Source of the DNA: a virus
Lineage: Duplodnaviria; Caudoviricetes
Length of the DNA: 64,000 nucleotides
Virus record (IMG/VR): IMGVR_UViG_3300020413_000003
Location: 32,001-96,000 of that record
Strand: one strand, 5' to 3'
Below are positions 26,801 through 47,800 of this stretch, piece after piece. A model generated the notes under the pieces. The model was given only the letters and a program-made list of their open reading frames with translations. It ran no database searches and was not told where the DNA came from. Positions within the stretch are counted from its first letter, which is position 1. Each line of letters starts with the position of its first letter. Made by a program: the position numbers and the translations under genes.

Positions 26801-29800
26801 TGGAACATTCTTAGTTACATCAAGAGATTCTACAACAGTATTCCAGTATCAACTTCCCCAACCAGGTGGAGTTATACCTCAAGGTAATATTCTTGTTTCT
26901 ATTGACCTTAATAAAGGTAAATCATCAAGTGCACAGATTTTAACTGCTATTGGTTCGTACACTACAAACGTTCAGAACACATTCTTTAATGACAATCATG
27001 TTTATGTTGCTTCTACAGGTATTCCAAACTATGACATAGGTCCGTTTCCTGGTTCTGCACTATTACCTGGTAACCAAAGAAAATTAAACAGATTTCCAAG
27101 AGTTGCTCAGACTATCTCTACAAAGAACTTAATTAATCCAGGTCCTGTTGGAACTTGGGTTAATGGTGTTTCTATATGGTCATATAAGTCATCTCTATTC
27201 AAAACATTTGGTGCTGTAACTGGTATTACAATCACTAACGTTGGTCAAGACTATGATGCTGCGTCACCTCCTAATATTACTATTGCAGGTGGTGGAGGAT
27301 CTGGTGCAACAGGTTCTGTTGTTGTTAACGGTTCTCTTAGTGAAGTAGAAGTTCTTACTGGAGGAACTGGTTATACATCCTCTCCATTGGTCTCTATAGT
27401 CGGTGGTAACGGGTCTGGAGCTGCTGCTACTGCCATTATAACCAAAGGTGTTGTTTCACGTATTCTAATCAATTCTGGAGGAACTGGATATACCTCACAA
27501 CCATCAATTACTATTGTTGGAGGTGGTGGAACTGGTGCAACTGCAACAGCAAACGTTAGAGGTCCTATTCAATCTATTTCAGTTGATCAGGGTGGTGCAT
27601 CATATACTTCTAAACCAACAGTAACACTAAGTTCTGGATCAGGTGCTGTTGCTCAAGCAATTGTACAGAATGGTCGTATTATATCAATCGCTATCATTTC
27701 TGCAGGATCAGGTTATACAACTGCTCCTATAATAAGCATTCAAGGTGATGGATTTGGTGCTGTTGCTAGAGCAGGTATTGATATTGACGGTGAAAACGCA
27801 GGAAGAGTTACAAGTGTTCAGATTCTTAATAGAGGTATTGGATATATTCAAGGAACTACACTGATTAATCTAACTTCAGTTGGTCAAGATGCATTATTCA
27901 CAGCAAACGTATTCCAGTGGACTTATAACTTACAAGCAACTAGTATATTAGATACTGCTAAAGGTGGAGTATTTGAAGGATTTAATAATCAGTATGGTGG
28001 TGAATATGCTCACCTATCAAACCCACAAAGACTAAGATATGTTCTTGGTGATAACTTACAAGAACCAACTGTAGGAAATATAGTTGAACAGGCAGAACAA
28101 TTAGATCACTCACCTATTGTTGGTTGGGCATTTGATGGAAACCCAATCTACGGTCCTTATGGTTACGCTGATCCTACAGATCAAGGATCTGCTATCAATA
28201 GATTGAACACTTCTTACAAACTTAAGACAGAACTTGTATATGATGTAGTTACAAATCCTTATCCTACTAGAACTGCAGGTCCATTACTAACTAACGAGGC
28301 AGCAGGTAACTTTGTAGAAGATTATGAGTATAGTTTTGGTTTGGGTGATCTTGACCAGTACAATGGTCGTTTCTGTAAAACACCTGAGTTCCCTGCAGGT
28401 AGGTATTGCTATTTCGTTACTATTGACACTACGGAGCAAGGTAATGCAATGTTCCCTTATGTTTTAGGTCCTAGTTTCAACTCTGTTGTTGATACTTGGA
28501 ACTTAACTGATGGTGCAACTCAACAGAATATTCCTACTGGTGTTGTTAGATATCGTGATCCTTACGAGAACGTTGATATTGACGTTGAGAGGGCACCAAA
28601 TGCCTCTACAAACGCTCTAACTACCGAAGACGGTGAATTGCTCCTATTTGAGGTAGAAGACGAAAATAGAGACGCTATTATCAGTCAGGATGAACTAGAT
28701 GATCCTGATCAAATCTTTGAAGAGTCACCTCTACAGTTATTTGATTATTTCCCTAAAGTTAAGTTTGACTCTAAGGTTGATATTGAAGTTGAGACAATTA
28801 CTAAGTTTGAAGATGCTTCTGTAACTGGATTTACAGTAGAGAATCCTGGTGCTTCTTATCAGGTTGCTGACAGACTAGTATTTGATAACACAGATACTGA
28901 TGGTACTGGTGTTTCTGCTCGTGTTTCTCATATTAAAGGAGAGGCAGTTTCAACTTACAGTTATGAAAGTATTGGTGGTATTAACTACGGTGTTTTAAAG
29001 ACTTCAACTCCTCACAACTTAACTGTTGATGATCAGGTTGTTATAGATTACACACCTATAATGAACAACACTAATAAAACTTTTGTTGTTAAACAAATTA
29101 AAGGTGTTGAAGAAATTGTTATTGATCAGCAAGGTTCTGGATATAATAGTGAATTACCTCCAACAATCATTCTTGATGGTGATGGAACTGCTGCAGCATT
29201 AGAAGCGGTTGTAACATCTGTAGGATCTATTTCTACAGTTAATATTACTAACTCTGGTCAAAACTATACTACAAACCCAAGAGTTATATTATCACACCCT
29301 CAAATCTATAAGAAAGCAGATTATTATGTTTCTAAGATTGCAAATGAGAATTATGTTAAGGTTAATGACGTATTTGTAAATGATGCTAAAGAAATATTCA
29401 TTTGTGGTAAAACAAAAGACTCTTTTGGATATACTATTGGATTCTTAGCAAAACTATCTGCTACTGGTGTAAAAGACTGGGAAAAGACAATTAAGAGTAC
29501 TGATGGACAACAAGAAGTAGAATTTGAGAGATTATTAATTGATGGACAAGATATTTACGTTGCAGGTCATAATAAACCAAATGCAAGTATCTTAGAGGCA
29601 TATAACCCTGATGTTGTTCTTTGTAAGTATACACAGGCAGAAAATGGATTAAGTGCTACTTTACAGTATCAAAAGGCATATGCAGGTATATCTGGTTCTA
29701 CTCGTTCCGACAATATTAGTGCTATTGCAAAATACTCTGATACTAGATTTGTTTTAGGTGGTTTCACTAATACTAACTCTGGTAATCCATTTGATGCTTA

Positions 29801-32800
29801 TATTGCTGTTGTAGACACACTTGGTAACTTTGCTGTTAAGAGAAAGATTACTTCTGTAAATGTTTCTGAAAAAGTTACAGATTTACTTGTAAATGGAACT
29901 GACATATACTATACATTAGAAATTGCTACAAGTCCTAATGCAACAAGCGTTGATACAGGTATTGGTAAAGCAACTGTAGGTACTAGTGCAATTAGTCTTG
30001 TTTGGACTAAGCAATTAACTAATACACTGTATTCATTCATGGATACAAGTCTTACTATCGATGAATTTAGTGAATTATACATTACTGCTACAACAAGACT
30101 TAAATCAGACAATACAACAAAAGATGGTTTCTGGATTGGTAAATTAGATTCAGATGGTGCTTTCCTTTGGAACTATCGTTATGCAGTAGCTGGTGGATAC
30201 ACTATTAATGTTGCTAAAAGAACTCATATTGATATCTTTGGTGATCTTAATATTGCTGTCAACAAATATCTCAATACAAATGGAGAATTAACTGTAGACG
30301 TAGTTAAAGTTGGTTATAACGGTATTATTAAGAATCAGACAAATAATAAATTTGATCTTAATAATATTGAAGGTGTAACTGCACATAGTTTATATCCTGA
30401 TAGTTCTGGTGATATTCATGTATTTGGTCAAACTTCTTGGAATAGAAATGAACTTCTAATACCATTTACCAGTGGTGCAACTACAGATGTTACAGGACAC
30501 TATACAGCAACCTTTGTAGGAGACGGTAACTCACTTCAATATGATACTACTAATGGATTTGCAAAATTACTAGGAAAAGACTCTACTACTCCTAGTACTT
30601 GGGTAAATTCAGTTATACAAGTTAATGGATCAGATTTAACAACTAAAATGACTGGCGACTGGACTATTGAGTTCATGTTGTTTAAAGATGCTGCTAATAA
30701 CAATAATACACACTCTCAAACACAACAAACCCTAATAGCAATAGGTGATGCAACATTATCTACTGGTGGTCTATGGTTGTATTATGATATTTCATCTGGA
30801 GAGATGCAGTTAGTTGTTACTGCAAATGGAACTGCACTCAACTCTGCATCAGGTTCACTACAATCTACAGTTACAACAATGTTTGCCGATAATACTTGGC
30901 AATTTGTTGCACTTACTAAATCTGCAGGTCAGTATACAGCATATGTCAACGGTATACAAGTTCTTCAAGGAACTATTGATAATACTGCATTCCAGAATCA
31001 AAATCTATACATTGGTAATATTCCTGGTAAGAGTGGAACTTTAAATCAATTCCGTTCTAATGAACAAGGTCAATACTTTGTTGATAATCTTCGTATTAGA
31101 AACAGAGCAGTTGTTCCTACAGTTCCTAATGATGTTACTAACTATCCTATTGCAGGTGAGTTTAGTGAAGGATTTACATGGACTGATACATCATGGTTCT
31201 CTACTTACACTAACAAATATGATTATATCGATTATGTTGGTTGGGGTTTAAAAGTTGATAAGAACTCTGATGCTGCAAGAATTGGAACTCAAACTGTTCA
31301 AACTAACACACAAGTTGGATTTACTAGAACTGCTATTGTATTACAAACAGGTTTACCATTAACTGTTAATAATACTGGATTTGGATTAGCAGAAGCAGGA
31401 TTCCAAAACTTAGACTTTGATGATGCTGATACATCAATGACTCAGGACTCTGATTCATTATCTTATACTCAAGACGTTTGGAGTTCTAGAACTGCTACTG
31501 TTCCTTCACCAGGTTCTAAAAAATTAAGAGTTACTGCAGTTGTTAAAGACAGATACTTCTTTAAAGTTACACCTACAGTCAAGATTGATAATATTCAAGA
31601 ACTTACTCTAAATCAGCAATTTGTATTTACTACAGGTTCAAAATTAGTATTAAGTAGTTCATCAGGATCATTCATTAATAGTGGATACATTATTAGACAA
31701 AATAGTGTAGGTAATAAGATATATCTTGCTGTTAATAATAATGCTTGGGCAAATGATCTTAATACTGGTGAATTAACTACAGAACAGTTTAATGAGCAAA
31801 GCACTTATGGAATTGTAGGTCCTATACCCGCAGATGTTAATGAATTAATATACACCTTCCCACTACTAAACAACACTACACCTGGTACATTTGATATAGA
31901 TCTAAACAATTTTAATCACCCAGAAGGAGGTTCAAATAATCTTGATGAATTAACTAACTTTAAACCTTACACTGATGATGATTACTCTATAAGAATTGAT
32001 GAAGTAGCTGGTGGTTCACCTTTTATTCCTGGATCTGTTGTTAATATTAACTCTGGTGATATTAGTTTCAATGCTGCATATACAACTGCATCAATTATCA
32101 ATTTAACTGGTGTTCTTAAGATTACTTTAGTAGCAACACTTAAGAAAATTATACAAGTAACTGCTGTTGCTAATAGTGATGAAGTTTATATTGTTACTGC
32201 AAATAGTCATTACCTTACTCAAGGTGAAATGGTTAGTATTGATGGTAACCCATCACAAACTGTTGATAGTGTCGTTTATGATGAATATGATGGTGCTTTC
32301 CCAGTTCACACTATTGTAAGTCCTGTTGAATTTACATATAAATTACCTTCTGCTGCAATAACTTCACCAGCTACAAGTTCTGGAAGTGTTAATATCTACG
32401 TTAAGTCACCTGTTCTTAAAATGTATTATGGACATCAATATCTCTTTGATGTTGGTCATTCTTCTATGGCGGGTGGTAACTTATCATTCTCTAAAGATAA
32501 TCTTTATAAACTGGAATATTCATTCAACTCTATTGAAAGAGTAGGTACACCTGGTATTACTGGTCAAGGTGTTCCTAACCCTACTGTTAAGTTAAAAGTT
32601 GATACTGACATTGTTACTAATATTTCTTACTACTTTGACCCATCTAGAACAGGTGCTGATTCTCCAGTTATTGCATCTAGTTACTTAGATGTTGTTAATT
32701 CACCTTACGTAGGTAATTTCGCAATCACTTCTACATCTGGTGCAACTATTACTCGTGGTGCAGATACCTTTAAATTTGTTCTTGCTAACGAACCAGAGGG

Positions 32801-35800
32801 TAATGCTGATGTTATCAATACATCTTATAGCACTAGTTCATTGAAAGCAGTTGGTTCTATAAGTGATATTCGTATTGTTAATGGAGGAGGTTTCTATACT
32901 AGACTTCCAGTTGTTACATCTATTCAGTCATCTAGACAAATAGAAAGAATTCAAATTGATGCACCAGGTACTGAATATGCTGTAGGTGTTTACAATAGTG
33001 TTCCTATTGCAGGTGATGGAGAAGGTGGATTTGTTTCTATTACTGTAGCAGACGGAACTGATGATGATGGAGTAACGATTCCTGGTCAAATACAGTCTGT
33101 TGTTGTTACATCACCAGGTAAAGGATATACTACTGCAAGTATTGATGTTGAATCTATATCGGGTATTCTTGGAGCAGGTTTAACAGGTTCTGGTGTTGAT
33201 TTGAATGTTGTTATTCCTCCTGCAGGAACTGGTGCTTCTATCTTTACCAAAGGAACTAAAGTTGGTAAGATTAAGAAATTACAGAACAACAACTTTGGAT
33301 ATGATTATCCTCATGACTATACTTTACGTCCTGAGATTTCATTCCCAATTAACGCACAGTTAACATCCACAAGTATACTTGATAGTATTACAGTTACAGA
33401 TCCAGGTTCTGGATATTCACAAGCACCAACCGTTGTTATCACAGGTGGTGGTGGACAAAATGCAACTGCTGAAGCATTCATTAAGAATGGTCGTTTAGAT
33501 GATATTCTTGTTAAAGATCCAGGATCAGGTTACTCTTCTGCTCCTACTGTTGCATTAAGATCTTCTTTCAACTATGTTGTTAACCTTGACTTAGGATTAC
33601 TACAATTTGCTTTCCCACATGGTATTGTGAATGGTTCTGAGGTTACATTAACAGTTACTGATACTGGTGATGGTGCTGAGTTCCCATTATCAGCAGGTGC
33701 TGTTGGTCGTTTGAATTCTACTAACACATATTATGCTATTGCTGGTACTGCAAACTCACTAGAAGAAAACCAATTAAAGATTGCTATTACTGCTGCTAAC
33801 GCTGCATTAGGTGACTCTTTATCATTTGTTAACGCAGGAACAGGTCGTCAAACAATATTAACTGAATCATTCGGTGGTGCAGCAACTGCTAACGTTATTA
33901 CTTCTACATTCTTAGAAGGTGAACTTGTTTATCAAGGAGATACTTTAGATGCTGCAACTGCTAGTGGATATGTTTCTACTAACCAAGGTTGGCAGGTAGG
34001 ACCTAGAATTATTAAGATTGTTGATTACACTGGAAACTTTAATGCTAACGAAAGAATAACAGGTGTTATTTCTAAGTCTTCTGGTATTATAAGTGATCTT
34101 AAGATTGCTCGTGGTGTTCTTGAAATTGGTTCTATCACTAAGACAACTGGTCAGTTCATTGATGATATTGGTAAACCATCTGAAATTATTCAGAAAATTC
34201 AAGATAGTTACTATTATCAGGACTTCTCATATGCTGTTAAGTCTGCTGTTTCTATTGGTGAGTGGAAAGAGATATTACTTAAGAACGTTCACCCTGCATC
34301 ATTCAAAGTATTCGGTGAATTAAATCTGGCTGAATATGGTCAAATTCCTAACAAAGAAACTGATTTCCAGATAACCAAAGCTGTTGAATTAGCAAGAGAA
34401 GCAATTGTACCTAACATTCAGAGTTTCTCTCTAGTTGAACCAGTCTACTCACAGTTTAATAACTCAGAAGTATTATTCAGACAGAAGAGATTGACATCTT
34501 CTGAGAACATTTTGACTTCTGTTGTTCAGCGTATTGATGATATATCAAATCAATTTGATGGTGTTAAAACACAGTTCCAATTAAAAGTTAATGGTGACAA
34601 CGTAGTTGCTAATGCTAATCAGTTAATGATCATCTTAAATGGTGTTGCTCAAACTCCTGAGACATCATTTAATATTCAAGGTGATTCTATTGTATTCAGT
34701 CAACCACCACAACCACCTGCAAGTATTAAGTATGTAAACGTTACTATTCAAGAGATTACTATATCTACTCTTGAATTTACTAATATCAGTGGAATATTCC
34801 CACTCAAGGGAAATACAATGGCTGGACAGACTTCTTTAGCAAGATTTACTGTTACAGCTGTTGTTGGTAATTCAATTTTCGGTTTCTTTGTAGAAGGAAC
34901 TGCATTTACAGTTGGTGAATTGGTAAGTAACAGTGCTACTGGATTTATTGCAAACTATGCTTCAGTATCAACTGTTTCAAATCTTGGATTGTTTGTATTT
35001 GGAGAGCAGGTTTCAAACCTTACTGGAGAGACTGCTAAAGTTGAAGCAATTAACTTAGCAGGTGGTTCTGAAGCTCCACTTGGTCAATTACGTTATGGTA
35101 TAGGTCCTTCAACTGCATCAGTTGAAATTGTAGCAGCAAAGATACTTTCTACAGATGCTGATACACCTCCTGCAGCAGGAACATTTACTGTAGGTGGTAA
35201 CTATCAGATTGGTTCTGAAATTGTAAATGTAACTAACGTTACTACTAACAATGATTCAGTTGTATTAGAAATAACTAGAGGTGAATTAGGTACTACAGCA
35301 GCAACACAGGCAGAAGATGGTCCTGTATATGCAACAACAGTTCTTGTTAATGACAAGTTAACTTTAAGTAAAACTACTGGAACATATCAGTCTACACCTG
35401 GTTTATTTGATCTTGCTCTTGATGATGTTATTATTGGTGCTCAGTCTGGTGTAGTTGCAAGATTGACTGCTACATCAACATATCAAGATCCTACAACTAA
35501 TGAGTTTATCGGTCAGGTTAATATTTCAGAAGGATCTTCATTCTTTGGATTACTATTCAACAGAGTTACATCAATTACATACCCAAATATTGTTCTAGAT
35601 GATATTTCATTATCAACAATTAGTGTTGTTGACTATACAGACTACGTAACAGATATTGATTCTCAATTCCCTGCTAACGAATTTATAAGTCAAATTGTAA
35701 TTCCTTACGATAATGCTTCTGGATCATTATCTATAGGTGAGAAGATTAGGAACTATAAATTTGATTATGGTAATAATGTTGGAACATTTAATAGTGGTGA

Positions 35801-38800
35801 AGCTGGTAAGTCTAGAAAACTATCATTTAAAGATAAGATAGGAACTGGTCTATTCTCCACAGGCGATACAATAAGAACTAGAGATACTAAAGCAGAAGTA
35901 ATTGGATTTAATTTCTCAGGTAATACAATATATCTTGGTAAGATTGGTAGATCATTAAGAGGTGGTGGTGATTATCATGTATTCAACTTCTCTGGTAGTG
36001 CTCAATTAGATACTTCAATTAAGAAATTTGGAGATTCTTCATTACAACTTGATCTAGCAACAAGTGATTATATTCAAATTCCTGCATCATCTGAATTTAC
36101 TCGTGGTACAGGTGATTACACTATTGAATTCTGGATTCGTCTAGATGCAGTATCTTTAGCAGATACTAAGACTTTAGTTGATATGAGAACAAGTGCTACT
36201 GAAGTTGCACTTAGAATTTACTTAGAAGCAGCACAAGTTCGTGTTAATGTTAATGGTTCAGATATAGCAACCTCTGGTGGAAATGCTCTAAACAATAATG
36301 TTTGGTATCATCTTGTAATTCAAAGAACTGGAACTACTGTTAAGATTATATCTAATGGAGTTGAGATTGGAACTGGAACAGATAGTGGTAATTATACCTT
36401 AGATAGACCAATTAGAATTGGTGCAGATTTATCTGGTCTTAATTCTATAACTGCTCATATTGATGAGTTTAGATATTCTACTGTTGCACGTTATGCAACA
36501 ATTCCATTTACTTCTCCTAATGGTATTTTCCAAGGAGATACTGATACTAAAGTATTATGCCACTTTGATGGTGCTGATGGAGCAACTAAGACTGAAGATT
36601 GGTCTGGTGGTGAATCATTTACTAAGGGTGAATATGTTAATAACGATTCTATATTAACAACAAATAGTTCTAATCCAACTGCTGCACCTGCAGGATTTAA
36701 TATTAAGAGTCACAGATATATTAACGCTGCAGATTTAATGTTAATGAACAAGGAATATCTTGCTCAAGAAACAGTTTATATTATGAAGGAAGTATTCCCT
36801 GCTCATAGTGTTAAGGGTAGTGAAGTTGATTGTGAAGATGATGTAAGAGATGTTGTCGATTCTATAGTAGAAGATTTACGTAATGGTAGTAATCATCATA
36901 TGTGGAAAGCAGCTTCATACTATGTTAATAGAGAAGTTAATCCAATTCAAATTGTAAACGTAGAAGATGATGTCTCTATGACAGTCTATGTTTATGAAAT
37001 ATTAGATAAAATTGCTAAGTATATTGTTAATAATGTTCCTTGGAGTACTCAAGGTGATCATGGTTTAACTCAGAAGTATGACACTACTATTACATTTGAT
37101 GGTTACACATCTCAAACATTAACTAAGTTTACACCAACAGCAATCGACTATCATCCATCAATGGGTGACATGGAAATAACAGCTGCAAGTCATGGACTCG
37201 CGGCCCCTAGAACTATAACAGCATCAGGGTCGGGATACACTGCTACCACTGGTGTTTTGACTATTGAATCTGTTGGGCACTCACTAGAAACTGGGGACAG
37301 AATTAAGTTTGAGCCTAATTCTATTACCATGACTTGTACTTGTGATGGTAATGTAGTATCACAGAGTTATCCTAGAGATGATGATCCAGCAAATCAAGGC
37401 TGGTTAGAAGTATCGAAGATTGATAATGATAACTTTAGTGTAAATGTTGGAACATCTCCTACAGTAAACTTTACTGCAACTTCAGCAGATTATAATAGTA
37501 ATACTGGTTTCTTAACTATGGACATTGGTGACAATGATCTAAGACCAGGAAGTAAATACACTGTTGAAAGTGCAGCATATAATCCTACTAGTGGTGTAAT
37601 GACAGTAGGTATTGGTAACGATCAGTATAATGTTATTGATGCTGATTATAGTCCTACAAGTGGAGATTTAGAAATCTTTGTTAGTTCACATAACTTAAAA
37701 ACAGGACAGAAAGTTAAGATTGCTAATGATGGTCTTACATTCAGATGTTCTCAAGATGACTATGCTACTGATCACCCATATCCAAGAGCAACTGACCCTG
37801 CACGTAATACAGCATTAGAAGTTCTTCATGTAACTGATGAATCATTCACAGTAAACGTTGGTAAATCTCCTATAGTTGAATTTGATGTTTCCAATGCAAC
37901 ATTCAATCCTAATACAGGTGATATGGAGTTGACTATTGGAAATCATAGTTTGTCTTCAGGTACTTCTATTAGAATAGCAACTCAAAGTATTGGATTTACA
38001 TGCACATATGGTGCAGGTGTTCACTACTACCCAAGACCTCTAATTGATGTGCATGTTCCAACTGATGCATCATATAATCCAACAACAGGTGTAGTAACAT
38101 TCACTGTTAATCAGGGACATGGAATGAAGAATGGTGATAAGGTTAAGATTCCTGATTACTCACTTTCATTCACATGTGATAAAGATAATAATGCAACTAC
38201 TCACAGATATCCTAGACCTTATGATCCTATTAGTGATAAATGGATTGAAATAAGTAATGTTCAAACAACATCAATCGATGTTCAAGTATTAGATACTGCT
38301 CCTTCCACAAATACATCTACTCATACTTTTGTAAGTTTTACAGATGTTATATCACAGAAACGTGATAAGTCATTTGAACAATCTATTCCAATTACTGCTA
38401 CAACTGGAACAACTATTACTATTAATGTTGGTGTTTCAAGTAATACAACAACTCATACATATTCAACTTCTAAAGCAGGTGCTGTAATTACTGGTGGTAA
38501 TTATAAGCATAAGTTTAGATCTGCACTTGATAACGCTATAACAGTAGAGCATGGCTTATATGTTGGTGATAGAGTCATGTTCGATAGAGACTCTCTAACA
38601 TTTACATGTCTTGAAGATAGTGGTGCTACTGAACACACATACCCAAGAATTACAGATCCTTACTATAATAAGTGGTTACCTATTTCTAATGTAACTCATA
38701 CAACATTCGATGTTCAAGTACTAAGTTCTACACCTTCTACTAACCAAACTGCTCACACATTTGTTCGTGCTAAAGTTAATGGTCTAACAAGATCTGGTGA

Positions 38801-41800
38801 AACACTAAAACTTGCTAAAGACGCTCTATCATTTACATGCTCACAGGATAATGATTCTACAGTTCATTCTTATCCTAGAGTCGATGATTCAGTTTATAAT
38901 ACCGCTATTCCAATTTGGAGTAATGGTAACACTAGAATGACTGCTGAAGGTGCAAGTTATAATACTTCAACTGGACTATTGACTATTAATATACTAAATC
39001 ATGGTTTAACAGTTGGCACAGAACTTAGATTAGAAAATAATTCTCTTGTCTTTACTTGTGCTAAAGATGGTAATAAAACAGAGCATTCATATCCAAGACG
39101 TAAAGATCCATACGCTGCTAGATGGTTAAGAATTAAAGCAGTTAGTGATCATACATTTACAGTATTTGTTGGTGAAGCAAGTTCTACAGGTCAGTATGCA
39201 CATACATTTGTAAGAGCAGTTAAGGATGGTATTGTTAAGCGTGATAATACTGTTACTGTTAACGTTGGTGCTACTCCAACTAAGGCATATACTCCATCTG
39301 CTGCAACTTATAATGCTAGTACTGGTGCTTTAGAATTAAATGTCGGAACACATAGTTATCCTGCTCCAACACAACATACACCAACTGATGTTGCTTATAA
39401 CCCTGTTAGTGGTGTAATGACTCTGACTATTGCAGGTCATAACTTCTCTAATGGTGAGAAAATTAAGATTGCTGATAATGGTATTAAATTAAGTTGTCCT
39501 TACGGTGGTGCAACTGGAACTGCTGCACAGAAAGATTATCCACGTTCAACTGACCCAGTTAGCAACAAATGGATTCCAATATTCAACGTAACTACAGATA
39601 CTTTTGATGTTCAAGTTTTAGATTCAATTCCTTCTACTAACGTTGATACTCATACATTTGTAAGTGCAGTTAATAACTGTGTTAGCAAGGCAAATTACAC
39701 TGTTAAACTTGCTCCTGATTCATTACTAATGACATGTGATATGGATACCAATGCTACTAAGCATGTATATCCAAGATCTAATGTTGCTACTCATACTCCA
39801 TCTACAGGTACAAGTTACAACCCAGTAACAGGTGCTCTTACAGTTTCAATTCCTACTGAATCATTTACTGCTTCTGCTGCAAATTATAATGTCACATCAG
39901 GTGCATGTGTATTAACAATATCACAGAATGCAGGATCATATAATGTTACTGGTGCAACTTACTCACCTTCTGTTGGAACTTTAGTTCTTACACTTGGAAC
40001 TCATAGTCTAACAACTAGTGACAGAATTAAAATTACTCCAGAATCACTTAAGTTTACTTGTGATTATAATAACGATAATAATACAACAATTCACCCTTAT
40101 CCTCGTGCTGCAGGTGCTTACAACTCAACAAATTCAAAAGCAGATTATGCTTATGATACATGGTTAGACATTAGTGCAGTTACAGGAACAACAATCACTG
40201 TTAACGTTAACGGTGGTCAAGGTGCTATTACTGACATTAGTAATCATACATTTGTTGGTGCACTTGATGGTGCAGTTCAAGTTGGTCATGGTATAGTACC
40301 TGGCAACAAAGTTAAACTTGCTCCTAACTCACTAACATTTACTTGCACATTAGATGGCAACACTGCACAGAAATCTTATCCTAGATCAACAGGTGCTAAT
40401 ACAACAAGTGGTGCTGACTATGCTTATGATAAGTGGCTCAGAGTTATGGATGTTGGTGACAATACTATAACTGTTAACTTGAATGGTGGTCAAGGTGCTA
40501 TCTCAGATACATCAGCACATACATTCGTTTCAGCTACTACAAATGGTATTACCCTTGGACATGGTATGGTTGCTGGTACACCTATTAAAATCAAAGATGG
40601 TGGCGTAACATTCAGATGTGCACATGATAATAATGCTACTTTACATCCATATCCAAGGTCTACTGACCCTGCAAGTGATAAGTGGTTGTTTATCAAGAAT
40701 GTATCTGATACTCAGTTTGAAGTTGATATTTTACAAGGAACAACTCCTACAAATACAACAACTCATACCTATGCAGGTTCTCTTGATAATTGTATCATTC
40801 AAGGAGATCCACTTGTTGCTCAGGCAATTCCTATTGATGCAGTAACAGGAAATACTATTACTATCAATGCTTTAGATGGATATACGCCTTCATTCACACC
40901 AAATCATACTTTAGATTCTGTAGCAACATCTCAGTTTACACCAACTAATGCAGTTTATAATGGAACTACAGGTCTAATGACCATAACAGTTTTAACTGCT
41001 AACTTCCAACCTTCTACTGTTGCTTATAATGCGATAACTGGTGAGATGCAAATGACTATTGGAACTCATAGTTTGGCAGTTGGAGAAGAAATATTAATCG
41101 CTCCTAATTCACTAACATTTACTTGTGATTATAATGGAGATGGAAATACTACAAATAAGACATATCCTAGAGCAACAGGTGCTGCAACTCCTAGCGGTGC
41201 AGACTTTGCTTACAATAATCAATTAGTAATTACAGACACAACCAACACCACTATTACTGTTAATGTTAATGGTGGCGGTGGAGCAATTACTGATACAACC
41301 AACCATGTATTTGTATCAGCATTAGCAGATGCAGTCAGTGTTTCACATGGAATGAAGAACGGTGAAAAAATTAAGATTGCTGATAATGGTATTACATTTA
41401 CTTGTACTCATGATAGTAATGCTACAAACCATCCATATCCAAGAGTAACTGATCCTGCTAGTGGTAGATGGTTAGATGTTCATAACGTCACGAATACTAC
41501 TTTCGATGTTCAAGTATTAGATGAAATTCCTTCTACAAATACTACAACTCATACATTTGTTTCTGCTACAACTAATGCGATTACAAGAGCAATAGTTTCA
41601 ACTGGTGGTAACTATAAGCATAAGTTTATATCTGGTCTTACAAATGGTGTTAGAACTGGTGGTGACTATACTCATACATTTGTTTCTGCTACTTCTAACG
41701 GTATACATGTTGCAGGTGATTCAATTTACATTGATAATAATTCACTAAGATTTACTTGTTCTCAAGATAATCATGAAACACAACATGATTATCCACGTGC

Positions 41801-44800
41801 CACTGATCCTGCAGCTAAGCATGTAATGGAAGTTAAGACTAAGGATGATAATAGATTCGTAGTTAACGTTGGCAAGTCTCCACAAGACAAACGTTATGAT
41901 CACTTATTTGTTAGTGGTGATGCTAATTCTATTACTAAGTCTAAGTATGTAATTACAAATTGTTCTGACGTTTATACAACTACAAACAACTTAATTGATA
42001 TTCTTAGAGATACAATCACTCAGGCTGCTTTACCATCTCCTGTAGATCATCTTGCATCTATTACTGATCTTCTTCCAGTAGATGAATTTGTTGGTGGAAC
42101 AATTCATTCATATCTAGAAGTACCATTCAAAGTTACATACGAAGATGATGCTCAGGAAATGGTATACACAGATAGAATCGATGTATTCAGTCGTTACAGA
42201 TTCCGTGATGCTGCTAATTTAATTCGTCAGAACACAGGTGCTATTGTAGATAAAGCATCCTATGATATGTTAATTCGCTACCCTGCTCTTTATCAGGATA
42301 TGCCTAGAAACAATAATGGTGCATCTACAGATGGAATTGAGCGTTGTAAGACTGACCTTACACAGGTTTGTGGTGGACTTGCTAATGATATTGAAAATGG
42401 TGGTAATAAGAACGTTGTTGCTGCTGCAGGATTCTACATTGGTCAATTTAATGAAATACAACATATTAGATTACAGTTACTACAATCAATTTACGTTCAT
42501 AATCGTTTAGTATTCTACTTAAAGCAAGCAATAGATGGAAGTTTAACTACTGATAATACAGAAAATCTTATCGTTGGAGATTGGGGTATAACCAATGATG
42601 ATAGTGTAACAACTTATGATGTATACAATGCATCTTATGACGCAGGAACTGGTGATTTGGTAATGACTCTTGCATCAAACACTGGAACATTTAGTGTTAG
42701 TGGTGCAGTTTATAATCCAACATCAGGTGATCTAACACTTACAATCGGAACCCATACTTTAACAACTAATGATAAGGTTGGAATTGCTGAGGAATCATTA
42801 GTATTCACTTGTGATTATAATGGTAATGGTAATCAAACTCAGAAGAGATATCCTAGATCATTTGGTGCTGGTACAACAAATGGTGCTGACTATGCATATA
42901 ATCAATTCCTTGATATTACTCAGGTAAATCAGAGTGGTGGAACAATCACTGTTAACGTTAACGGTGGTCAGGGTGCAATTACAGATACCACAACTCATAA
43001 CTTTGTTGTTACTCCATCTGCTACAAATGCAGTTACTGTTGGTCATGGATTTACTGCAGGAGATAGTTTACAAATTGGTAATGAAGCATTGACATTCACA
43101 TGTTCAATGGATGGTAACGTTTCTAATAAGACATATCCTCGTGCAACAGATCCTGCATATGGTAAGGCACTTACAATTACAAGTGCTACTACAACAACTG
43201 TAACTGTTAATGTAGGAACTACTCCAGAAGTTAAGTATACTCCAACATTCGCAACATACACTGCTACAACTGGTGTGTTAGTTCTTACTATTGGCAACCA
43301 CAATTTAGAGGTTGGTCAACCAGTTAAGATTAATCAAGGTGCATTGAAGTTTACTTGTGCAATGGATGGAAATGAGTCTATTAAACCTTATCCAAGAACT
43401 AGTGATCCATTCTACAACAAACCTATTGATATTACTGCAACTACAGCAGATACTATTCAGTTAAACGTTGGGCAGAGTCCAATAGTTTTACATACAGTTT
43501 CTAATGCTACTTACGATCCTACTACAGGTGTAATGGTATTGACAATAGGATCTCACACTTTGACTGCTGGTACTAGCATTAAACTTGCTACTGAGTCATT
43601 AGTCTTTACTTGCACATTAGATGGTAATACAATTCAGAAATCATATCCTCGTGCTACTACTGCTAATACAGGAACTGGTGCTGACTATGCATACGATACT
43701 GCAATCAATATTGATTCTGCAGATACCGCAGCAGGAACTATTACTATCAACGTAAATGGTGGACAAGGTGCTATATCTGATACATCAGCACATACATTTG
43801 TTTCTGCTAATGCAGGTGCTGTAAGATCTGGTGGTGATTATGTTCATACATTCCATTCTGCAGATACAGAATCTATAATTGCTGGTGGTGAATATACTCA
43901 CGTATGGGCAGGTGGTACTGCTACAGATGCAGTTAGTGTTATCGGTGATTGTGCAGATGTTAAGAGTAATATCGAATCATTAATCAATACAGTTAATGAT
44001 ATTATCGCACCTACAGGTCTAGATTATGATACTGCAGGTAACAGACTTTACTTTAACAGAGAACTTCTTGCATCAGATGTAACTTCTAGAATGTTAACTG
44101 AGTTTACATATCAAGCAGGTCCTACAACATACTTTGCATTCCAATTTGATGGAAATAATATATCAGCAGCAGACTTCCAAGCAGATGTTGAGGTATTGAT
44201 TCAAAATCTAATATCTGATTTACAAACAGGTGGTAATAATAGTTCTATTAGAGCACTTCAAGAAGTGTATCTTAATTCTGATGGAACTCTTCATAGAATT
44301 GAAGATATGCTTATGCCAACTGTTTATGGTATGGAAGTTCTTAAGGAAGCAGGTAGAGAAGCAATTAGAAATAACGTATTCAATTCATCAGAAAATATTC
44401 CTTTCGGTGGATATGTAACAAACGCTGCTCAAGCAGCATTTAGAGATGATTTAGAGACTGTAGATATTGATCAAGTAATTGGAGATTGGAATAATCTTCT
44501 TGATCATGTAATTGAATTCTTCTCACCTGGCAAGAAAGAGGCTAGAAATGGTATGAAGAATATTCTTTATAATGTAAACTATTATAAGAATGAACTAAAC
44601 AACCTTGTTAATACTCAGTTTGGTAATGGTGCTTGGGTCTATAATGATTTCGTTGATGAGTTAGTTGGAAATATAGTTCAAGACTCCATCACAACTCCTA
44701 TAGATCATAAGACTACAGCAAGAAGAATAACTGTTACAAGTGTGAGTGGAGAATTTATAGTTGGTGAAGTTGTAACTGCTAATGGTGGTGGATACGCTCA

Positions 44801-47800
44801 GATTCTTGAATGGGATAGTAAAGACAGACATCTATATGTCGGACCTTTCCTTAGTGGTACAATTTCTGCAGGTGAGACTCTTACTGGTGGAACTCAAGGT
44901 GGTGGAACTATTCCAACTGGAGGAGTTGGTATTGCATTTGATTGGTATACACAACCATCAAACGTTGAAATTCTTAGAAATGCAAGATTAATTAGTTCTA
45001 CTGTTCAAGATCAATTAATAGGTGAAAACGTTGGTTATAATTATCCAGAAGATTTAAGTAGTGGTAATACACTTACCGAAATAACCATAGGTGCTGATAG
45101 TGCTGTTGCACCTGATAACGCAATTAGTGCTGATAAGATTATTGCTTCATCTACTGTTGGTGAACATTTAATACACAGAAATTATAGTTTAAATGCATTT
45201 GAAACATTTGACGGTGGCACAGTTAAGTTTGACTCATCAACAGAGACATTTGATACTGGACAAGTAGGAACTACTGAATCACAGCAATTTACTTATTCTG
45301 TATTCTTAAAGGCAGGTGAGTATAGTAAAGTTCGTTTCGAGATGGCTCTTGATAGAGATACTACTGAGAAACAGCAATTGTTCTATGATATTGATTTAAC
45401 AGATGGAAGTGTAGGTAGTATCTTCCAACCTCAAGGTGGTCTTACAGTAGATGGAACTGGAGTAATTCCTTATGGTGGAGGATGGTATAGAGCATACGGA
45501 ACAATTACATGTTCATTCGGTTTCTCTCAACTCCGTCAACAAATTCAAATTAAGAATGCTACTGGTCAAACTAGTTTTGCAGGTAATGCATCTGATGGTC
45601 TTTATGCATGGGGTCTAAAACTTACTAAAGGAACTATCGATCCTTATGCTGCTACAACTGGAGATGTATTCTACGCTGATACAGAATATAATATTAAGTC
45701 ATATACAATCGATAGATTGGAAGAATGGATATATGATGCATTGAAAGATCAACTTCTTAATCCTTCTCCTGAGTCAGGTTTTGTACCGTTCTTCAGTGAT
45801 AGTGCATCTACTTATTATCATCCAGATTCAATTCAAAGATTGGTAAGATATAGTTTAGAAATAATTCGTAATCAATTATTAAATAGCACTTACTATACTG
45901 ACATTGTTGTTCAAAATGCAATAGGTCTTCCAACTAAAGATTATGGAACATTTGATTTCCCTGTTGCTCTTGCAGGTGGTCTTGCAGGTGCTGACTACTT
46001 GTATGGTTTAGAAAGTGGATCATATGCTGAACTAGAAAAAGTTACTATGAACGAAGGTGAAATTGTTCAAGTATATCAAAGATTCCGTATTGATGCTAAT
46101 ATTGTTGATGGTCCTTACTTCATGAATGAAGTTGTTCAAAAACAAGGAGATTCAACAGTCACAGGTGTTGTTTATGCATTCTATGAAGATGAAAACTTTA
46201 AGTATCTTGATGTTGCAGTTACTGGTGGAACATGGACAGTATTAGATTATGTTGTTGGTGCAACTAACTCAACAACTGCACAGATTAATGCTATTGAAGA
46301 TAGAATACAAATCACTGGTCTTGAAGGAGAATTTGTTAATAATATTCCATTCAAGGGATATGACACAGGTGAAACTGCAATTCCAACTGGATTCTTAAAA
46401 GCACAAGCTGCTGTTCTTGACAATAGTGGTGGTAAATTAACTGTTGATACTGAGTCTCTAATAGGTAGTTTTGAAACATCTGCTGTAATATATCCTGAGC
46501 AATCTAAGTTATTCATGGATGTTGCCAGATATGAAGGGTTAGATGTATTAATCGGTTATAGAATTTCTTCTGCAGGACATACAAGAATTGGTATTACAAT
46601 TCAGAATAATAAAAATGTATTTGTAGTAGGTAATAAACTTAATAAGATTACTAATGGCATCATTGATATAAACAACTATGGTTATATTACTGAAGTTGAT
46701 CTTGATAATAACATTCTATACTACATCTTAGCAGCAGGAAATATTACTAATGGTGATCAAGTTGGTGATTTTGGTGTTGCTCCTGATCCACTCAATCCAT
46801 TAGGATATGCAGTAATTAATACTAAGTTAGATATTGCAGGAGCTGCTAGTGCAGTAATTCAAGACATCAAAGATGTTGGTGTTAACAAACGATTCTATCT
46901 AACAAATGTAACAGGAACATTTAGTGGTAGAGATGGAATCTTTGGTAAGGATAATTACAAGGCAGCAGTCATAACTAAGACTGATCTTAGAGGACGTGTT
47001 GAACGTGCATTCAGAGGATTTGATGGAACACAAACTAACTTTAAGTTAACCATCTCAAACGGAACCAAGTACTTCCCAGATCCTGCAGGACATATGTTGA
47101 TCTTCATCAACGGTGTTCTACAACCACCAGGTTCAGCAAATGCTTATACAGCATTCTCAGATAACATCCAGTTTACTGAAGCACCTGATCTTGGAGCATC
47201 ATTCACAGGATTCTATGTTGGTAAACTAAGACAATTAGATGATATATCTTTCGAGTTTGATTCATTACGTCAGTCATTCAACCTTAAGCGTGATGATGTA
47301 TTCTACTCATTGACACTAACTGATGGTGTTCAATCATCTACAATATTACCAGAGAACAATATCATTTGTTCATTGAACGGTGTTATACAGGAACCAGGCG
47401 TTGGTTTTGAATTGGTTGGTTCTAGAATAATCTTCTCTGAAATTCCTCGTGTTGGATCAACATTCGTTGCATTCTCATACGTTGGTTCTGAAGCGGACGT
47501 TGATGCTGCAGAAGTTGTACCACCAATAGAAGTGGGTGACTTCATTGATATACAAGGTGAGACTGAAGATAGACAGGTTGCTGTTATCGAATCTTCAAAC
47601 TCCTTAATTACATTTGATTATCTTGGATCTGTATTTGGACAGAATGCTCAGGCATCTGCTACTCTCACATCTGGAACTATTGATAAAGTTCAAGTTACAT
47701 CTGGTGGATCTGGTTACACAACTAGACCAAATGTAAGAGTTGACTCCATATCTGGATTTGATGGAAACATTCGTGCACTAATTGGTGTAGCAGGTGTTGA

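What the first reader, a model, noticed from the sequence alone, without database searches (positions are those of the whole stretch)
37125..41942. Recursively nested (bracket-balanced) domain tree inside the 8033-aa gp7
Seen: the repeat unit has ordered segments A (F/Y-T-P-T-x-A-x-Y-N-P-x-T-G-x-L-x-L-T-I), H (GH-x-L-x-x-G), B1 (I-K-I-x-x-N-S-L-x-F-T-C...YPR), B2 (DP...W-x-x-I..T..V-N-V-G) and C (H-T-F-V-S-A). The 15 copies are not in tandem. Several openers occur back to back (37464, 37551, 37623) and their missing halves reappear later in exactly reverse order. Manual parse: D1[D2[D3[D4[D5[D6[D7]]]], D8, D9[D10, D11[D12[D13]], D14[D15]]]]]. The last three fragments (41604 GGNYKHKF, 41658 GGDYTHTF, 41715 GDSIYI..FTC..YPR..HLF) close D3, D2 and D1; D1's halves are about 1500 aa apart. 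No fragment is left over, depth reaches 7, and at least six different loops serve as insertion sites. Inference: the chain folds as a branched dendrimer-like arbor rather than beads on a string, grown by repeated domain-in-domain insertion, possibly a multivalent adhesion/antenna structure. I do not know a description of this architecture but cannot check the literature.
Basis: partly seen in the sequence, partly recalled or inferred. Interest (0 to 1): 0.92.

Follow-up and report, generated by a model that had tools for sequence, protein, structure and literature searches.

The report
Self-nested beta-barrel tree in cyanophage gp7
A giant baseplate protein of a marine cyanobacterial virus carries 15 copies of one small beta-barrel domain plugged into each other's loops seven levels deep, a rare way to build a protein that has been described for cyanobacterial RNA polymerase.

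Summary
In the 8033-aa gp7-like ORF (23826-47927), a 103-position profile built from intact copies cuts aa 4433-6034 into 27 pieces. A stack parser joins them into 15 complete units, depth 7, with nothing left over. None of 200,000 shuffles of the piece order is balanced. A second tree of 4 units follows at aa 6262-6699.

Two details change. D14[D15] hangs on D3, not D9. Four loops serve as insertion sites, not six.

Among 57 distinct orthologous regions from viral metagenome contigs, 48 parse as balanced, with 1, 4, 11, 15 or 17 units. The trunk is conserved and the tips vary. A unit that is contiguous in a P-SSM4-like relative (L084) best matches both halves of the split D4.

A two-chain prediction places the outer halves, about 1,500 residues apart, together (score 0.73, best control 0.00). 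The unit is a confident 8-strand barrel. It has no Pfam family and only weakly resembles the E1 FCCH and endosialidase barrels.

The architecture has a published precedent: the six-level nested Si3 of cyanobacterial RNA polymerase. I rate this a new variant of a known kind. Function is inferred. This scan already made and followed up the same finding in other cyanophage genomes.

The parts
23826..47927 (+). gp7-like giant baseplate / fibre-fusion ORF, 8033 aa
   Evidence: Pfam Baseplate_wedge 38.4 bits (cut-off 27); PHROG 701/18802
36690..37124 (+). helical scaffold segment just before tree 1, homologous to the segment before tree 2
   Evidence: BLASTP 25% identity over 150 aa, E 1e-9
37122..37199 (+). 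D1 opener (profile 1-26)
37215..37460 (+). D2 first part (profile 3-87)
37467..37532 (+). D3 opener (profile 2-23)
37557..37619 (+). D4 opener (profile 3-23)
   Evidence: ortholog contiguous in L084
37623..37865 (+). D5 first part (profile 2-84)
37878..38039 (+). D6 first part (profile 2-59)
38052..38345 (+). D7 intact unit, depth 7
38361..38474 (+). D6 closing part (profile 60-100)
38493..38516 (+). D5 closing strand GGNYKHKF
38544..38777 (+). D4 closing part (profile 22-101)
38790..38936 (+). D3 middle part (profile 27-77)
38934..39227 (+). D8 intact unit (the one folded alone)
39288..39356 (+). D9 opener (profile 3-25)
39369..39680 (+). D10 intact unit
39690..39782 (+). D9 middle part (profile 28-60)
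39792..39854 (+). D11 opener
39864..39920 (+). D12 opener
39939..40268 (+). D13 intact unit, depth 7
40281..40544 (+). D12 closing part (profile 22-102)
40557..40790 (+). D11 closing part (profile 23-102)
40803..40919 (+). D9 closing part (profile 60-98)
40932..41006 (+). D14 opener (child of D3)
41001..41330 (+). D15 intact unit
41340..41576 (+). D14 closing part (profile 22-102)
41583..41627 (+). D3 closing strands (ends in GGNYKHKF)
41658..41699 (+). D2 closing strand (profile 89-102)
41706..41927 (+). D1 closing part (profile 26-102)
41931..42620 (+). conserved non-repeat 'anchor' between the two trees, used to fetch orthologs
42609..43922 (+). second tree E1[E2, E3[E4]], 4 units, depth 3

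Best explanation
The stretch encodes one family of small beta-barrel domains of about 100 aa and 8 strands. The domains sit inside one another. Each split unit is completed by a distal segment in last-opened, first-closed order. The parse is D1[D2[D3[D4[D5[D6[D7]]], D8, D9[D10, D11[D12[D13]]], D14[D15]]]]. The whole tree starts and ends at one loop of a helical scaffold in a gp7-like baseplate protein.

Each unit has neighbouring ends and four permissive loops: after strand 2, after the YPR motif, in the strand 6-7 turn, and before the last strand. A complete unit or subtree can therefore be added or lost in a loop without breaking the host unit. Evolution acts mainly at the tips, and the D1-D2-D3 trunk is conserved.

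Shown here: the sequence grammar, its generality among orthologs, a confident barrel model, and a model-level pairing of the distant halves.

Inferred: the tree is a compact cluster of barrels displayed at the periphery of the baseplate or fibre apparatus, and it probably helps bind the host surface. My odds for that function are about 0.4.
For: Sequence grammar in the window:
- Piece coordinates on the profile are complementary, and the automatic parse is balanced: 27 pieces, 15 units, depth 7, 0 violations.
- 0 of 200,000 piece-order shuffles are balanced.
- All 19 units, split or not, keep the Cys, the YPR motif and the His of the closing strand. They cover 79-103 of the 103 profile columns.
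- A second tree obeys the same rule.

Orthologs and other genes:
- 48 of 57 distinct orthologous regions that are not cut by a contig end parse as balanced. The counts are 14 with 1 unit, 23 with 4 nested units, 8 with the window's topology, and 1 each with 11, 15 and 17 units.
- The same pattern appears in P-SSM4, P-SSM3 and Syn30 gp7 and in a P-HM1 tail-fibre gene.
- L084 unit 4 is contiguous, and it is the best match of both halves of the split D4. The opener matches at 17/25 (next best 15/25) and the rest at 48/70 (next best 37/71).

Structure models:
- AF2 of unit D8 with an 89-row alignment gives pLDDT 96.0 and pTM 0.87. All break sites lie in loops of that model.
- AF2 of a native 4-unit nest (L030, 23-row alignment) gives mean pLDDT 82.9. 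The orphan opener hairpin has pLDDT 90-92, and every unit shows the same 8-strand pattern.
- Two-chain prediction of window aa 4430-4547 against aa 5942-6038: score 0.73, best of 3 controls 0.00. That mark was reached by 58 of 80 solved complexes and 2 of 110 mismatched pairs. These counts hold only roughly, because my own alignments were used. The runs agree in at least 90% of contacts, and the partner's pLDDT is at least 82.
- In that model, D1 strand 2 (I4451) touches F6011-V6013, 1,560 residues away. The chain entering D2 (aa 4462-4465) touches the chain leaving it (aa 5960-5962).

Context for function:
- BFVD matches of the unit (28 at E <= 0.001) are cyanophage baseplate, tail and fibre proteins or unnamed entries.
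- Sullivan et al. 2005 (PMC1079782, one passage read) read the large gp7 homologs as fibre-baseplate fusions.
Against: - No coordinates of the AF2 models were available. Which strand pairs with which is shown only for D1 and D2, and only by a predictor.
- pTM of the 4-unit nest is 0.50, so the overall shape is unknown.
- 9 of the 57 orthologous regions did not parse cleanly. Five are large trees of 21-25 units and four are small regions. I did not resolve whether the cause is undetected short closing strands or real exceptions.
- For L084 unit 8 the two halves point to different window units: the opener to D11, the rest to D14.
- Three closing strands in tree 1 were found only by a loose motif or as part of a weak fragment.
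- There is no direct evidence for any binding function.
Confidence: 0.88

Rival explanations
1. The copies form a tandem chain with circular permutation or strand swapping. Each orphan segment pairs with its sequence neighbour, so there is no true nesting.
For: Runs of openers (A-A-A) and closers (C-C-C) could be extra edge strands added to neighbouring barrels. The pairing inside the deeper stacks (D4-D7, D11-D13) was not seen at coordinate level.
Against: - Every neighbour already has its own complete set of segments.
- Profile coordinates of distant pieces are complementary in last-in, first-out order, and 0 of 200,000 shuffles are balanced.
- The two-chain model pairs D1's hairpin with D1's strand 7, which is 1,560 residues away: score 0.73, best of 3 controls 0.00. 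The mark was reached by 58 of 80 solved complexes and 2 of 110 mismatched pairs, roughly, since my own alignments were used. Runs agree in at least 90% of contacts and partner pLDDT is at least 82.
- Split D4 has a contiguous ortholog.
Confidence: 0.04
2. The nested order is real in sequence, but the outer units (D1-D6, D9, D11, D12, D14) are decayed relics that no longer fold. Only the five intact copies would be domains, and the rest would be linker.
For: The outer units are more diverged. D1's best paralog is 47% identical and D3's is 38%. D3 lacks the loop His and covers only 79 of 103 profile columns.
Against: - All 19 units keep the Cys, YPR and closing-strand His.
- Trunk units are conserved between phages. 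D2 is 76% and D3 is 68% identical to the L084 units.
- Split units have pLDDT mostly 70-92 in the 4-unit model.
- In the two-chain prediction of the D1 and D2 halves, chain pLDDT is 83-85.
Confidence: 0.05
3. The nest grew by separate tandem duplications of sub-domain segments (first openers, then cores and closers), not by insertion of whole units. The final fold would be the same but the history different.
For: A-A-B-B can arise from two tandem duplications. DNA copies are too diverged (83% or less) to trace events. The closest paralogs are usually in other branches, not parent and child.
Against: - Differences between orthologs are whole units or subtrees at loop sites. D4 is contiguous in L084 and holds D5[D6[D7]] in the window.
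- I saw no clear orphan half-units in the 48 balanced parses.
- A foreign Laminin_G-like domain sits in the same loop of a unit in L030-like phages, which shows that whole-domain insertion happens there.
Confidence: 0.15
4. Assembly or annotation artefact: repeats were mis-joined into a false order.
For: The region is repetitive, and no reads were laid on it here.
Against: - Seven IMG/VR contigs with distinct sequences give the identical 15-unit bracket string.
- Unit DNA copies are 60-83% identical, too diverged to confuse an assembler.
- The frame is open for 8033 codons.
Confidence: 0.01

Closest known systems
Si3 insertion in the trigger loop of cyanobacterial RNA polymerase beta' (RpoC2): recursively nested sandwich-barrel hybrid motif (SBHM) domains
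   Same: - Copies of one small beta domain are inserted into each other inside a loop of a host domain.
- Several units are built from distant chain segments.
- Some nodes branch.
The case is described as 8 domains in a 6-level recursive architecture (PMC13114784, passages). The crystal structure shows SBHM-2 to -5 made from distant segments (PMC10895346, passages).
   Different: - The protein is a virion baseplate protein, not a polymerase.
- The unit is different. Its best fold matches are the E1 FCCH and endosialidase barrels, not SBHM.
- There are more units: 15 + 4 here, and 17 in a relative that parses as balanced.
- The nesting is deeper: 7 here, and 8 in L015 and L070.
- Topology differs strongly between orthologs, from 1 to 17 or more units.
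E1 ubiquitin-activating enzyme FCCH domain and the beta-barrel domain of phage endosialidases (Pfam E1_FCCH PF16190, End_beta_barrel PF12195)
   Same: All are small closed beta-barrels.
- VIA-align: 4p22_B Z 7.4, rmsd 2.5, 74 aligned. 4hiz_A Z 6.8, rmsd 2.5, 79 aligned.
- Foldseek: 4hiz E 0.03, TMq 0.48.
- Sub-threshold Pfam hits: E1_FCCH in 7 of 89 units and End_beta_barrel in 2 of 89.
From recall, not from a call: both of these barrels are themselves insertion domains in their host proteins.
   Different: - No hit reaches a Pfam cut-off.
- Z is under 8, which the tool says may mean only a common arrangement.
- The Cys, YPR and His signature of the unit is its own.
- Neither family is known to me to nest in itself.
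T4 gp7 baseplate wedge protein and the gp7-fibre fusions of T4-like cyanophages
   Same: - The N-terminal part matches Pfam Baseplate_wedge.
- The downstream ORF sizes (408, 1389, 510 and 2408 aa) follow the P-SSM4 order of gp7, gp9, wedge subunit, gp8 and VrlC.
- Sullivan et al. 2005 called the large (>15,000 nt) homologs fusions to gp7 homologs that likely encode tail-fibre subunits (one passage read).
   Different: From recall: T4 gp7 is about 1,000 aa and has no such repeat. I found no description of the nested barrels in the papers I searched.

Membership tests
Recursive self-insertion architecture (as in RpoC2 Si3) | Units are homologous to one another | tested here: met
   One 103-position profile matches all 19 units. 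Cys, YPR and the closing His are kept in 19 of 19.
Recursive self-insertion architecture (as in RpoC2 Si3) | Interrupted units are completed by distal segments in nested (last-in, first-out) order, over more than one level | tested here: met
   The parse is balanced with depth 7 and 0 violations. 0 of 200,000 shuffles are balanced. 48 of 57 orthologous regions are balanced.
Recursive self-insertion architecture (as in RpoC2 Si3) | Distal segments physically form one domain | tested here: inconclusive
   Prediction only. Two-chain score 0.73 against best control 0.00; the mark was reached by 58 of 80 solved complexes and 2 of 110 mismatched pairs, roughly, with my own alignments; runs agree in at least 90% of contacts; partner pLDDT at least 82. 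AF2 of a 4-unit nest gives pLDDT 82.9 without coordinates. No experimental structure exists.
SBHM / hybrid-motif domain family | The unit has the SBHM fold or sequence family | tested here: inconclusive
   No SBHM entry is among the 50 listed rows of either fold search of the single unit. Absence from a list does not exclude it.
E1_FCCH (PF16190) / End_beta_barrel (PF12195) | Score at or above Pfam's gathering cut-off | tested here: not met
   Best E 0.011 in 7 of 89 and 2 of 89 units. In the 2601-aa piece of gp7 that holds the repeats, the score is 16.4 bits against a cut-off of 29.5.
E1_FCCH (PF16190) / End_beta_barrel (PF12195) | Same fold | tested here: inconclusive
   Z 7.4 and 6.8, rmsd 2.5, 74-79 aligned. 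Foldseek E 0.03. All are below the tool's trust level of Z 8.
T4-type gp7 baseplate wedge protein | Baseplate_wedge domain | tested here: met
   PF23786, 38.4 bits against a cut-off of 27, at aa 683-729.
T4-type gp7 baseplate wedge protein | Synteny with gp9 and gp8 homologs | tested here: inconclusive
   ORF sizes downstream match the P-SSM4 gene order. The neighbours were not aligned.
T4-type gp7 baseplate wedge protein | Presence in the virion baseplate | not testable with these tools
   The record annotation of relatives says 'virion structural protein'. The proteomics tables are supplements that I could not open.

The most novel reading that the evidence does not exclude
The gp7 barrel tree is the deepest and most branched natural case of a domain inserted into copies of itself. 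It would be a living series in which closely related phages carry 1, 4, 11, 15, 17 and more than 20 units at the same scaffold loop. The tips would grow and shrink by whole-unit cassettes to retune host-surface binding. An invariant Cys/His/His triad would staple chain segments that lie up to 1,500 residues apart.
Probability: 0.25. Interest if true: 0.85.

Novelty: new variant of a known kind. Interest (0 to 1): 0.7.

Why it matters
Domain insertion is usually one level deep. A 2026 survey of 2.7 million domains presents six levels in RNA polymerase Si3 as its example of the most complex nesting (PMC13114784, passages read). This virion protein goes to depth 7 in the window and depth 8 in two relatives, with branching.

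Natural orthologs also span 1 to 17 or more units on one conserved trunk. That gives a ready-made series for three questions:
- How do insertions arise?
- Which loops tolerate them?
- How does a chain fold when the two halves of a domain are made about 1,500 residues apart?

For phage biology, it marks a large, fast-changing part of the baseplate or fibre apparatus of abundant marine cyanophages as a candidate host-range determinant.

Tried and rejected
- Pfam on the repeat region and on 89 single units: nothing reached a cut-off.
- PDB sequence search with the unit profile: nothing at E <= 0.001. The best hit, at E 0.0075, is an unrelated carbonic anhydrase.
- Foldseek against PDB with the 4-unit model and with the single unit: no match at E <= 0.001.
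- I looked for coordinate files of the AF2 models so that I could count contacts. None are provided. AF2 therefore gives only confidence and strand patterns.
I replaced it with a two-chain prediction of native pieces.
- The first version of my parser missed D12's opener and reported a false violation. Separate opener and closer profiles fixed this.
- With strict coordinate tolerance many distant relatives failed. After I allowed forward jumps and limited the region to the tree next to the anchor, 48 of 57 were balanced and 9 were still not. I inspected L014 by eye. I suspect undetected short closers and a possible fifth site near profile 47-52, but did not settle it.
The best copy identity is 83% over 60 nt.
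- Read-level checks were not run (look-up of sequencing runs and read laying unused). Independent contigs served instead.
- Five literature searches found no paper on nested domains in cyanophage gp7. Supplementary tables of the cyanophage proteomics papers could not be seen and may bear on virion presence.

Full report
**The gene.** The window holds one open frame at 23826-47927 (+), 8033 aa.
- Its N-terminal part matches Pfam Baseplate_wedge (38.4 bits, cut-off 27), YHYH and Laminin_G_3.
- The 2601-aa piece that holds the repeats has no Pfam family. It gives only a sub-threshold E1_FCCH hit, E 0.0096.
- PHROGs call it a virion structural or baseplate wedge protein.
- A tblastn search of phage records finds the repeat in 320 records, all below 60% identity. 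All are cyanophage records by the first word of their name: Synechococcus 239, Cyanophage 49, Prochlorococcus 22, Marine 10.
- The best hits lie in the gp7 genes of P-SSM4, P-SSM3 and Syn30 and in a tail-fibre gene of P-HM1.
- The downstream ORF sizes follow the P-SSM4 order of gp9, wedge subunit, gp8 and VrlC. I did not align them.

**The observation.**
- Motif maps give 15 openers, 15 cores (..C..YPR) and 15 closers between aa 4433 and 6034, and they are not in tandem order.
- A profile from the five uninterrupted copies cuts the stretch into pieces with complementary profile coordinates.
- I rebuilt the profile from 157 unique intact copies taken from the window and its relatives, and added separate opener and closer profiles.
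- The opener profile hits 15 places in tree 1, 4 in tree 2 and nowhere else in the protein.

**The parse.** The stack parser follows three rules. It opens a unit at a piece that starts at profile position 12 or lower. It continues only the innermost open unit, and only where that unit stopped. It closes a unit at position 93 or higher.
- It uses all 27 pieces and returns 15 units, depth 7, no violation and nothing left open.
- The result is D1[D2[D3[D4[D5[D6[D7]]], D8, D9[D10, D11[D12[D13]]], D14[D15]]]].
- None of 200,000 shuffles of piece order is balanced.
- A second tree, E1[E2, E3[E4]], lies at aa 6262-6699.
- In this window the unit occurs only in gp7.

- D9 closes at aa 5660-5698, before D14 opens at aa 5703. 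D14[D15] is therefore a sibling of D9 under D3.
- The 12 breaks of tree 1 fall at four profile sites, not six: 21-26 (7 breaks), 59-60 (2), 77 (1) and 84-87 (2).

**Relatives.** A conserved non-repeat segment (aa 6036-6265) follows tree 1. I used it to fetch 80 viral metagenome loci.
- Of 57 distinct tree-1 regions not cut by a contig end, 48 parse as balanced: 14 with one unit, 23 with four nested units, 8 with the window's own topology, and one each with 11, 15 and 17 units. Depth reaches 8 in L015 and L070.
- Nine do not parse cleanly: five large trees of 21-25 units and four small regions. I did not resolve whether this is missed short closers or real exceptions.
- The large balanced trees share the trunk D1[D2[D3[...]]] and differ at the tips.
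- Unit 4 of L084, a P-SSM4-like contig, is contiguous and is the best match of both halves of the window's split D4. The opener matches at 17/25 (next best 15/25) and the rest at 48/70 (next best 37/71). The two D4 halves, 308 residues apart, therefore belong to one orthologous domain, and the D5 subtree is a whole-cassette difference.
- For L084 unit 8 the signal is mixed: the opener points to D11 and the rest to D14.
- In L030-like phages a Laminin_G-like domain sits in the loop before the last strand of a unit, so the loop also accepts foreign domains.

**Not an artefact.** Seven IMG/VR contigs with distinct sequences give the same bracket string as the window. DNA copies of the unit are 60-83% identical.

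**Structure models.**
- Unit D8 with an 89-row alignment of intact copies gives pLDDT 96.0 and pTM 0.87, with eight strands. All four break sites map to loops of this model.
- A native four-unit nest from L030 (428 aa, 23 orthologs) gives mean pLDDT 82.9 and pTM 0.50. The orphan opener hairpin has pLDDT 90-92, the closing pieces about 67-92, and each unit shows the same strand pattern.
- To test the longest-range claim on the window's own sequence, I predicted two native pieces as separate chains. One was aa 4430-4547 (D1 opener plus most of D2) and the other aa 5942-6038 (D2 closer plus the rest of D1). Each had 24-25 ortholog rows.
- Result: score 0.73, best of 3 controls 0.00. The mark was reached by 58 of 80 solved complexes and 2 of 110 mismatched pairs. 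These counts hold only roughly, since my own alignments were used. The runs agree in at least 90% of contacts, and the partner's pLDDT is at least 82.
- The lowest-error contacts join D1's second strand (I4451) to F6011-V6013. They also join the chain entering D2 (aa 4462-4465) to the chain leaving it (aa 5960-5962). That is what a domain insertion predicts. This is a model, not a measurement.

**What the unit is.**
- Foldseek finds no PDB match at E <= 0.001. The top weak rows are the phi92 endosialidase (E 0.03, TMq 0.48) and the UBA1 FCCH domain.
- VIA-align gives E1 FCCH at Z 7.4 (rmsd 2.5, 74 aligned) and the endosialidase barrel at Z 6.8 (rmsd 2.5, 79 aligned). Both are below the Z 8 that the tool asks for.
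- Pfam on single units gives only sub-threshold E1_FCCH (7 of 89) and End_beta_barrel (2 of 89) hits.
- The PDB sequence search is empty at E <= 0.001.
- In BFVD, 28 predicted viral structures match at E <= 0.001. The named ones are cyanophage baseplate, tail or fibre proteins, and one is annotated as an endosialidase.
- In the large protein collection, 343 of 8000 scored candidates match at E <= 1e-5. They come from marine metagenomes and are almost all unnamed.
- Invariant columns in the 89 copies are Y12, G17, C45, P57 and H93. H26, F43, Y56, R58, D61 and V82 are nearly invariant. All 19 window units keep the Cys, YPR and the closing His. A Cys/His/His metal site is a guess that I could not test.

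**Scaffold.** The 145 aa before tree 1 and the 152 aa before tree 2 are homologous (25% identity, E 1e-9), and both end at the tree start. The pieces after the trees are only weakly alike (E 0.077). Both trees therefore appear to sit at the same point of a duplicated helical module. This explains why the array must return to its origin, which nesting achieves.

**Known precedent.**
- A 2026 survey (PMC13114784, passages read) describes eight hybrid-motif domains in a six-level recursive insertion architecture in Prochlorococcus RpoC2 Si3, with bifurcating nodes. The word 'phage' does not occur in its main text.
- The Si3 crystal-structure paper (PMC10895346, passages read) states that SBHM-2 to -5 contain elements from distant parts of the chain.
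- Sullivan et al. 2005 (PMC1079782, one passage) read the large gp7 homologs as fusions that likely encode tail-fibre subunits.
- Five searches found no paper on nesting in cyanophage gp7.
- Earlier notes of this scan report the same architecture in other cyanophage genomes and name the same precedent. I reached Si3 from my own search before reading them.

**Verdict.** The nesting is real at sequence level, general among orthologs and supported by models. The function (a peripheral, probably host-binding cluster) and the overall shape are inferred. I class it as a new variant of a known kind. It has a new domain family and host protein. It has more units than the published Si3 case, greater depth, and a natural series of tree sizes.

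Noticed in passing
L030, gp7-like ORF residues 2384-2678: A unit (profile 7-88) is followed by about 200 aa of a Laminin_G / concanavalin-like sequence and then by its closing strand (profile 93-102). A foreign domain is therefore inserted in the same loop that hosts sibling units.
   Followed up: partly
window 36690-37124 and 42180-42635: The helical segments just before tree 1 and tree 2 are homologous (25% identity over 150 aa, E 1e-9). Both trees sit at the same point of a duplicated scaffold. The segments after the trees are only weakly alike (E 0.077).
   Followed up: partly
window 37122-43922 (all 19 units): A Cys after strand 4 and a His in the last strand are invariant, and a His in the strand 2-3 loop is nearly so. 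They may form a metal site or a hydrogen-bond clamp that ties together segments far apart in the chain. This was not tested.
   Followed up: no
L004 4983-16013 (P-HM1 tail fibre gene PHM1_097): The same unit occurs nested in a different gene, at protein residues 1021-1316. The pieces run 2-85, 2-59, full unit, 62-102.
   Followed up: partly
L014, gp7-like ORF residues 2167-2673: Pieces with profile ranges 3-47 / 52-102 and 24-51 / 53-96 suggest a fifth insertion site between the Cys and YPR. My parser does not balance this region.
   Followed up: partly
window 39930-43830: The closest paralogs lie in different branches or trees (D12-E4 61%, D10-D14 59%, D13-E2 58% identity), not in parent-child pairs. 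A subfamily with a longer loop after YPR (D12, D13, D15, E2, E4) is spread over both trees.
   Followed up: partly
window 27987-28433 and 36060-36488: gp7 also carries a YHYH domain (aa 1388-1536) and a Laminin_G_3 domain (aa 4079-4221) by Pfam. A GGGDYHVF motif that resembles a unit closer lies just before the Laminin_G_3 domain.
   Followed up: no
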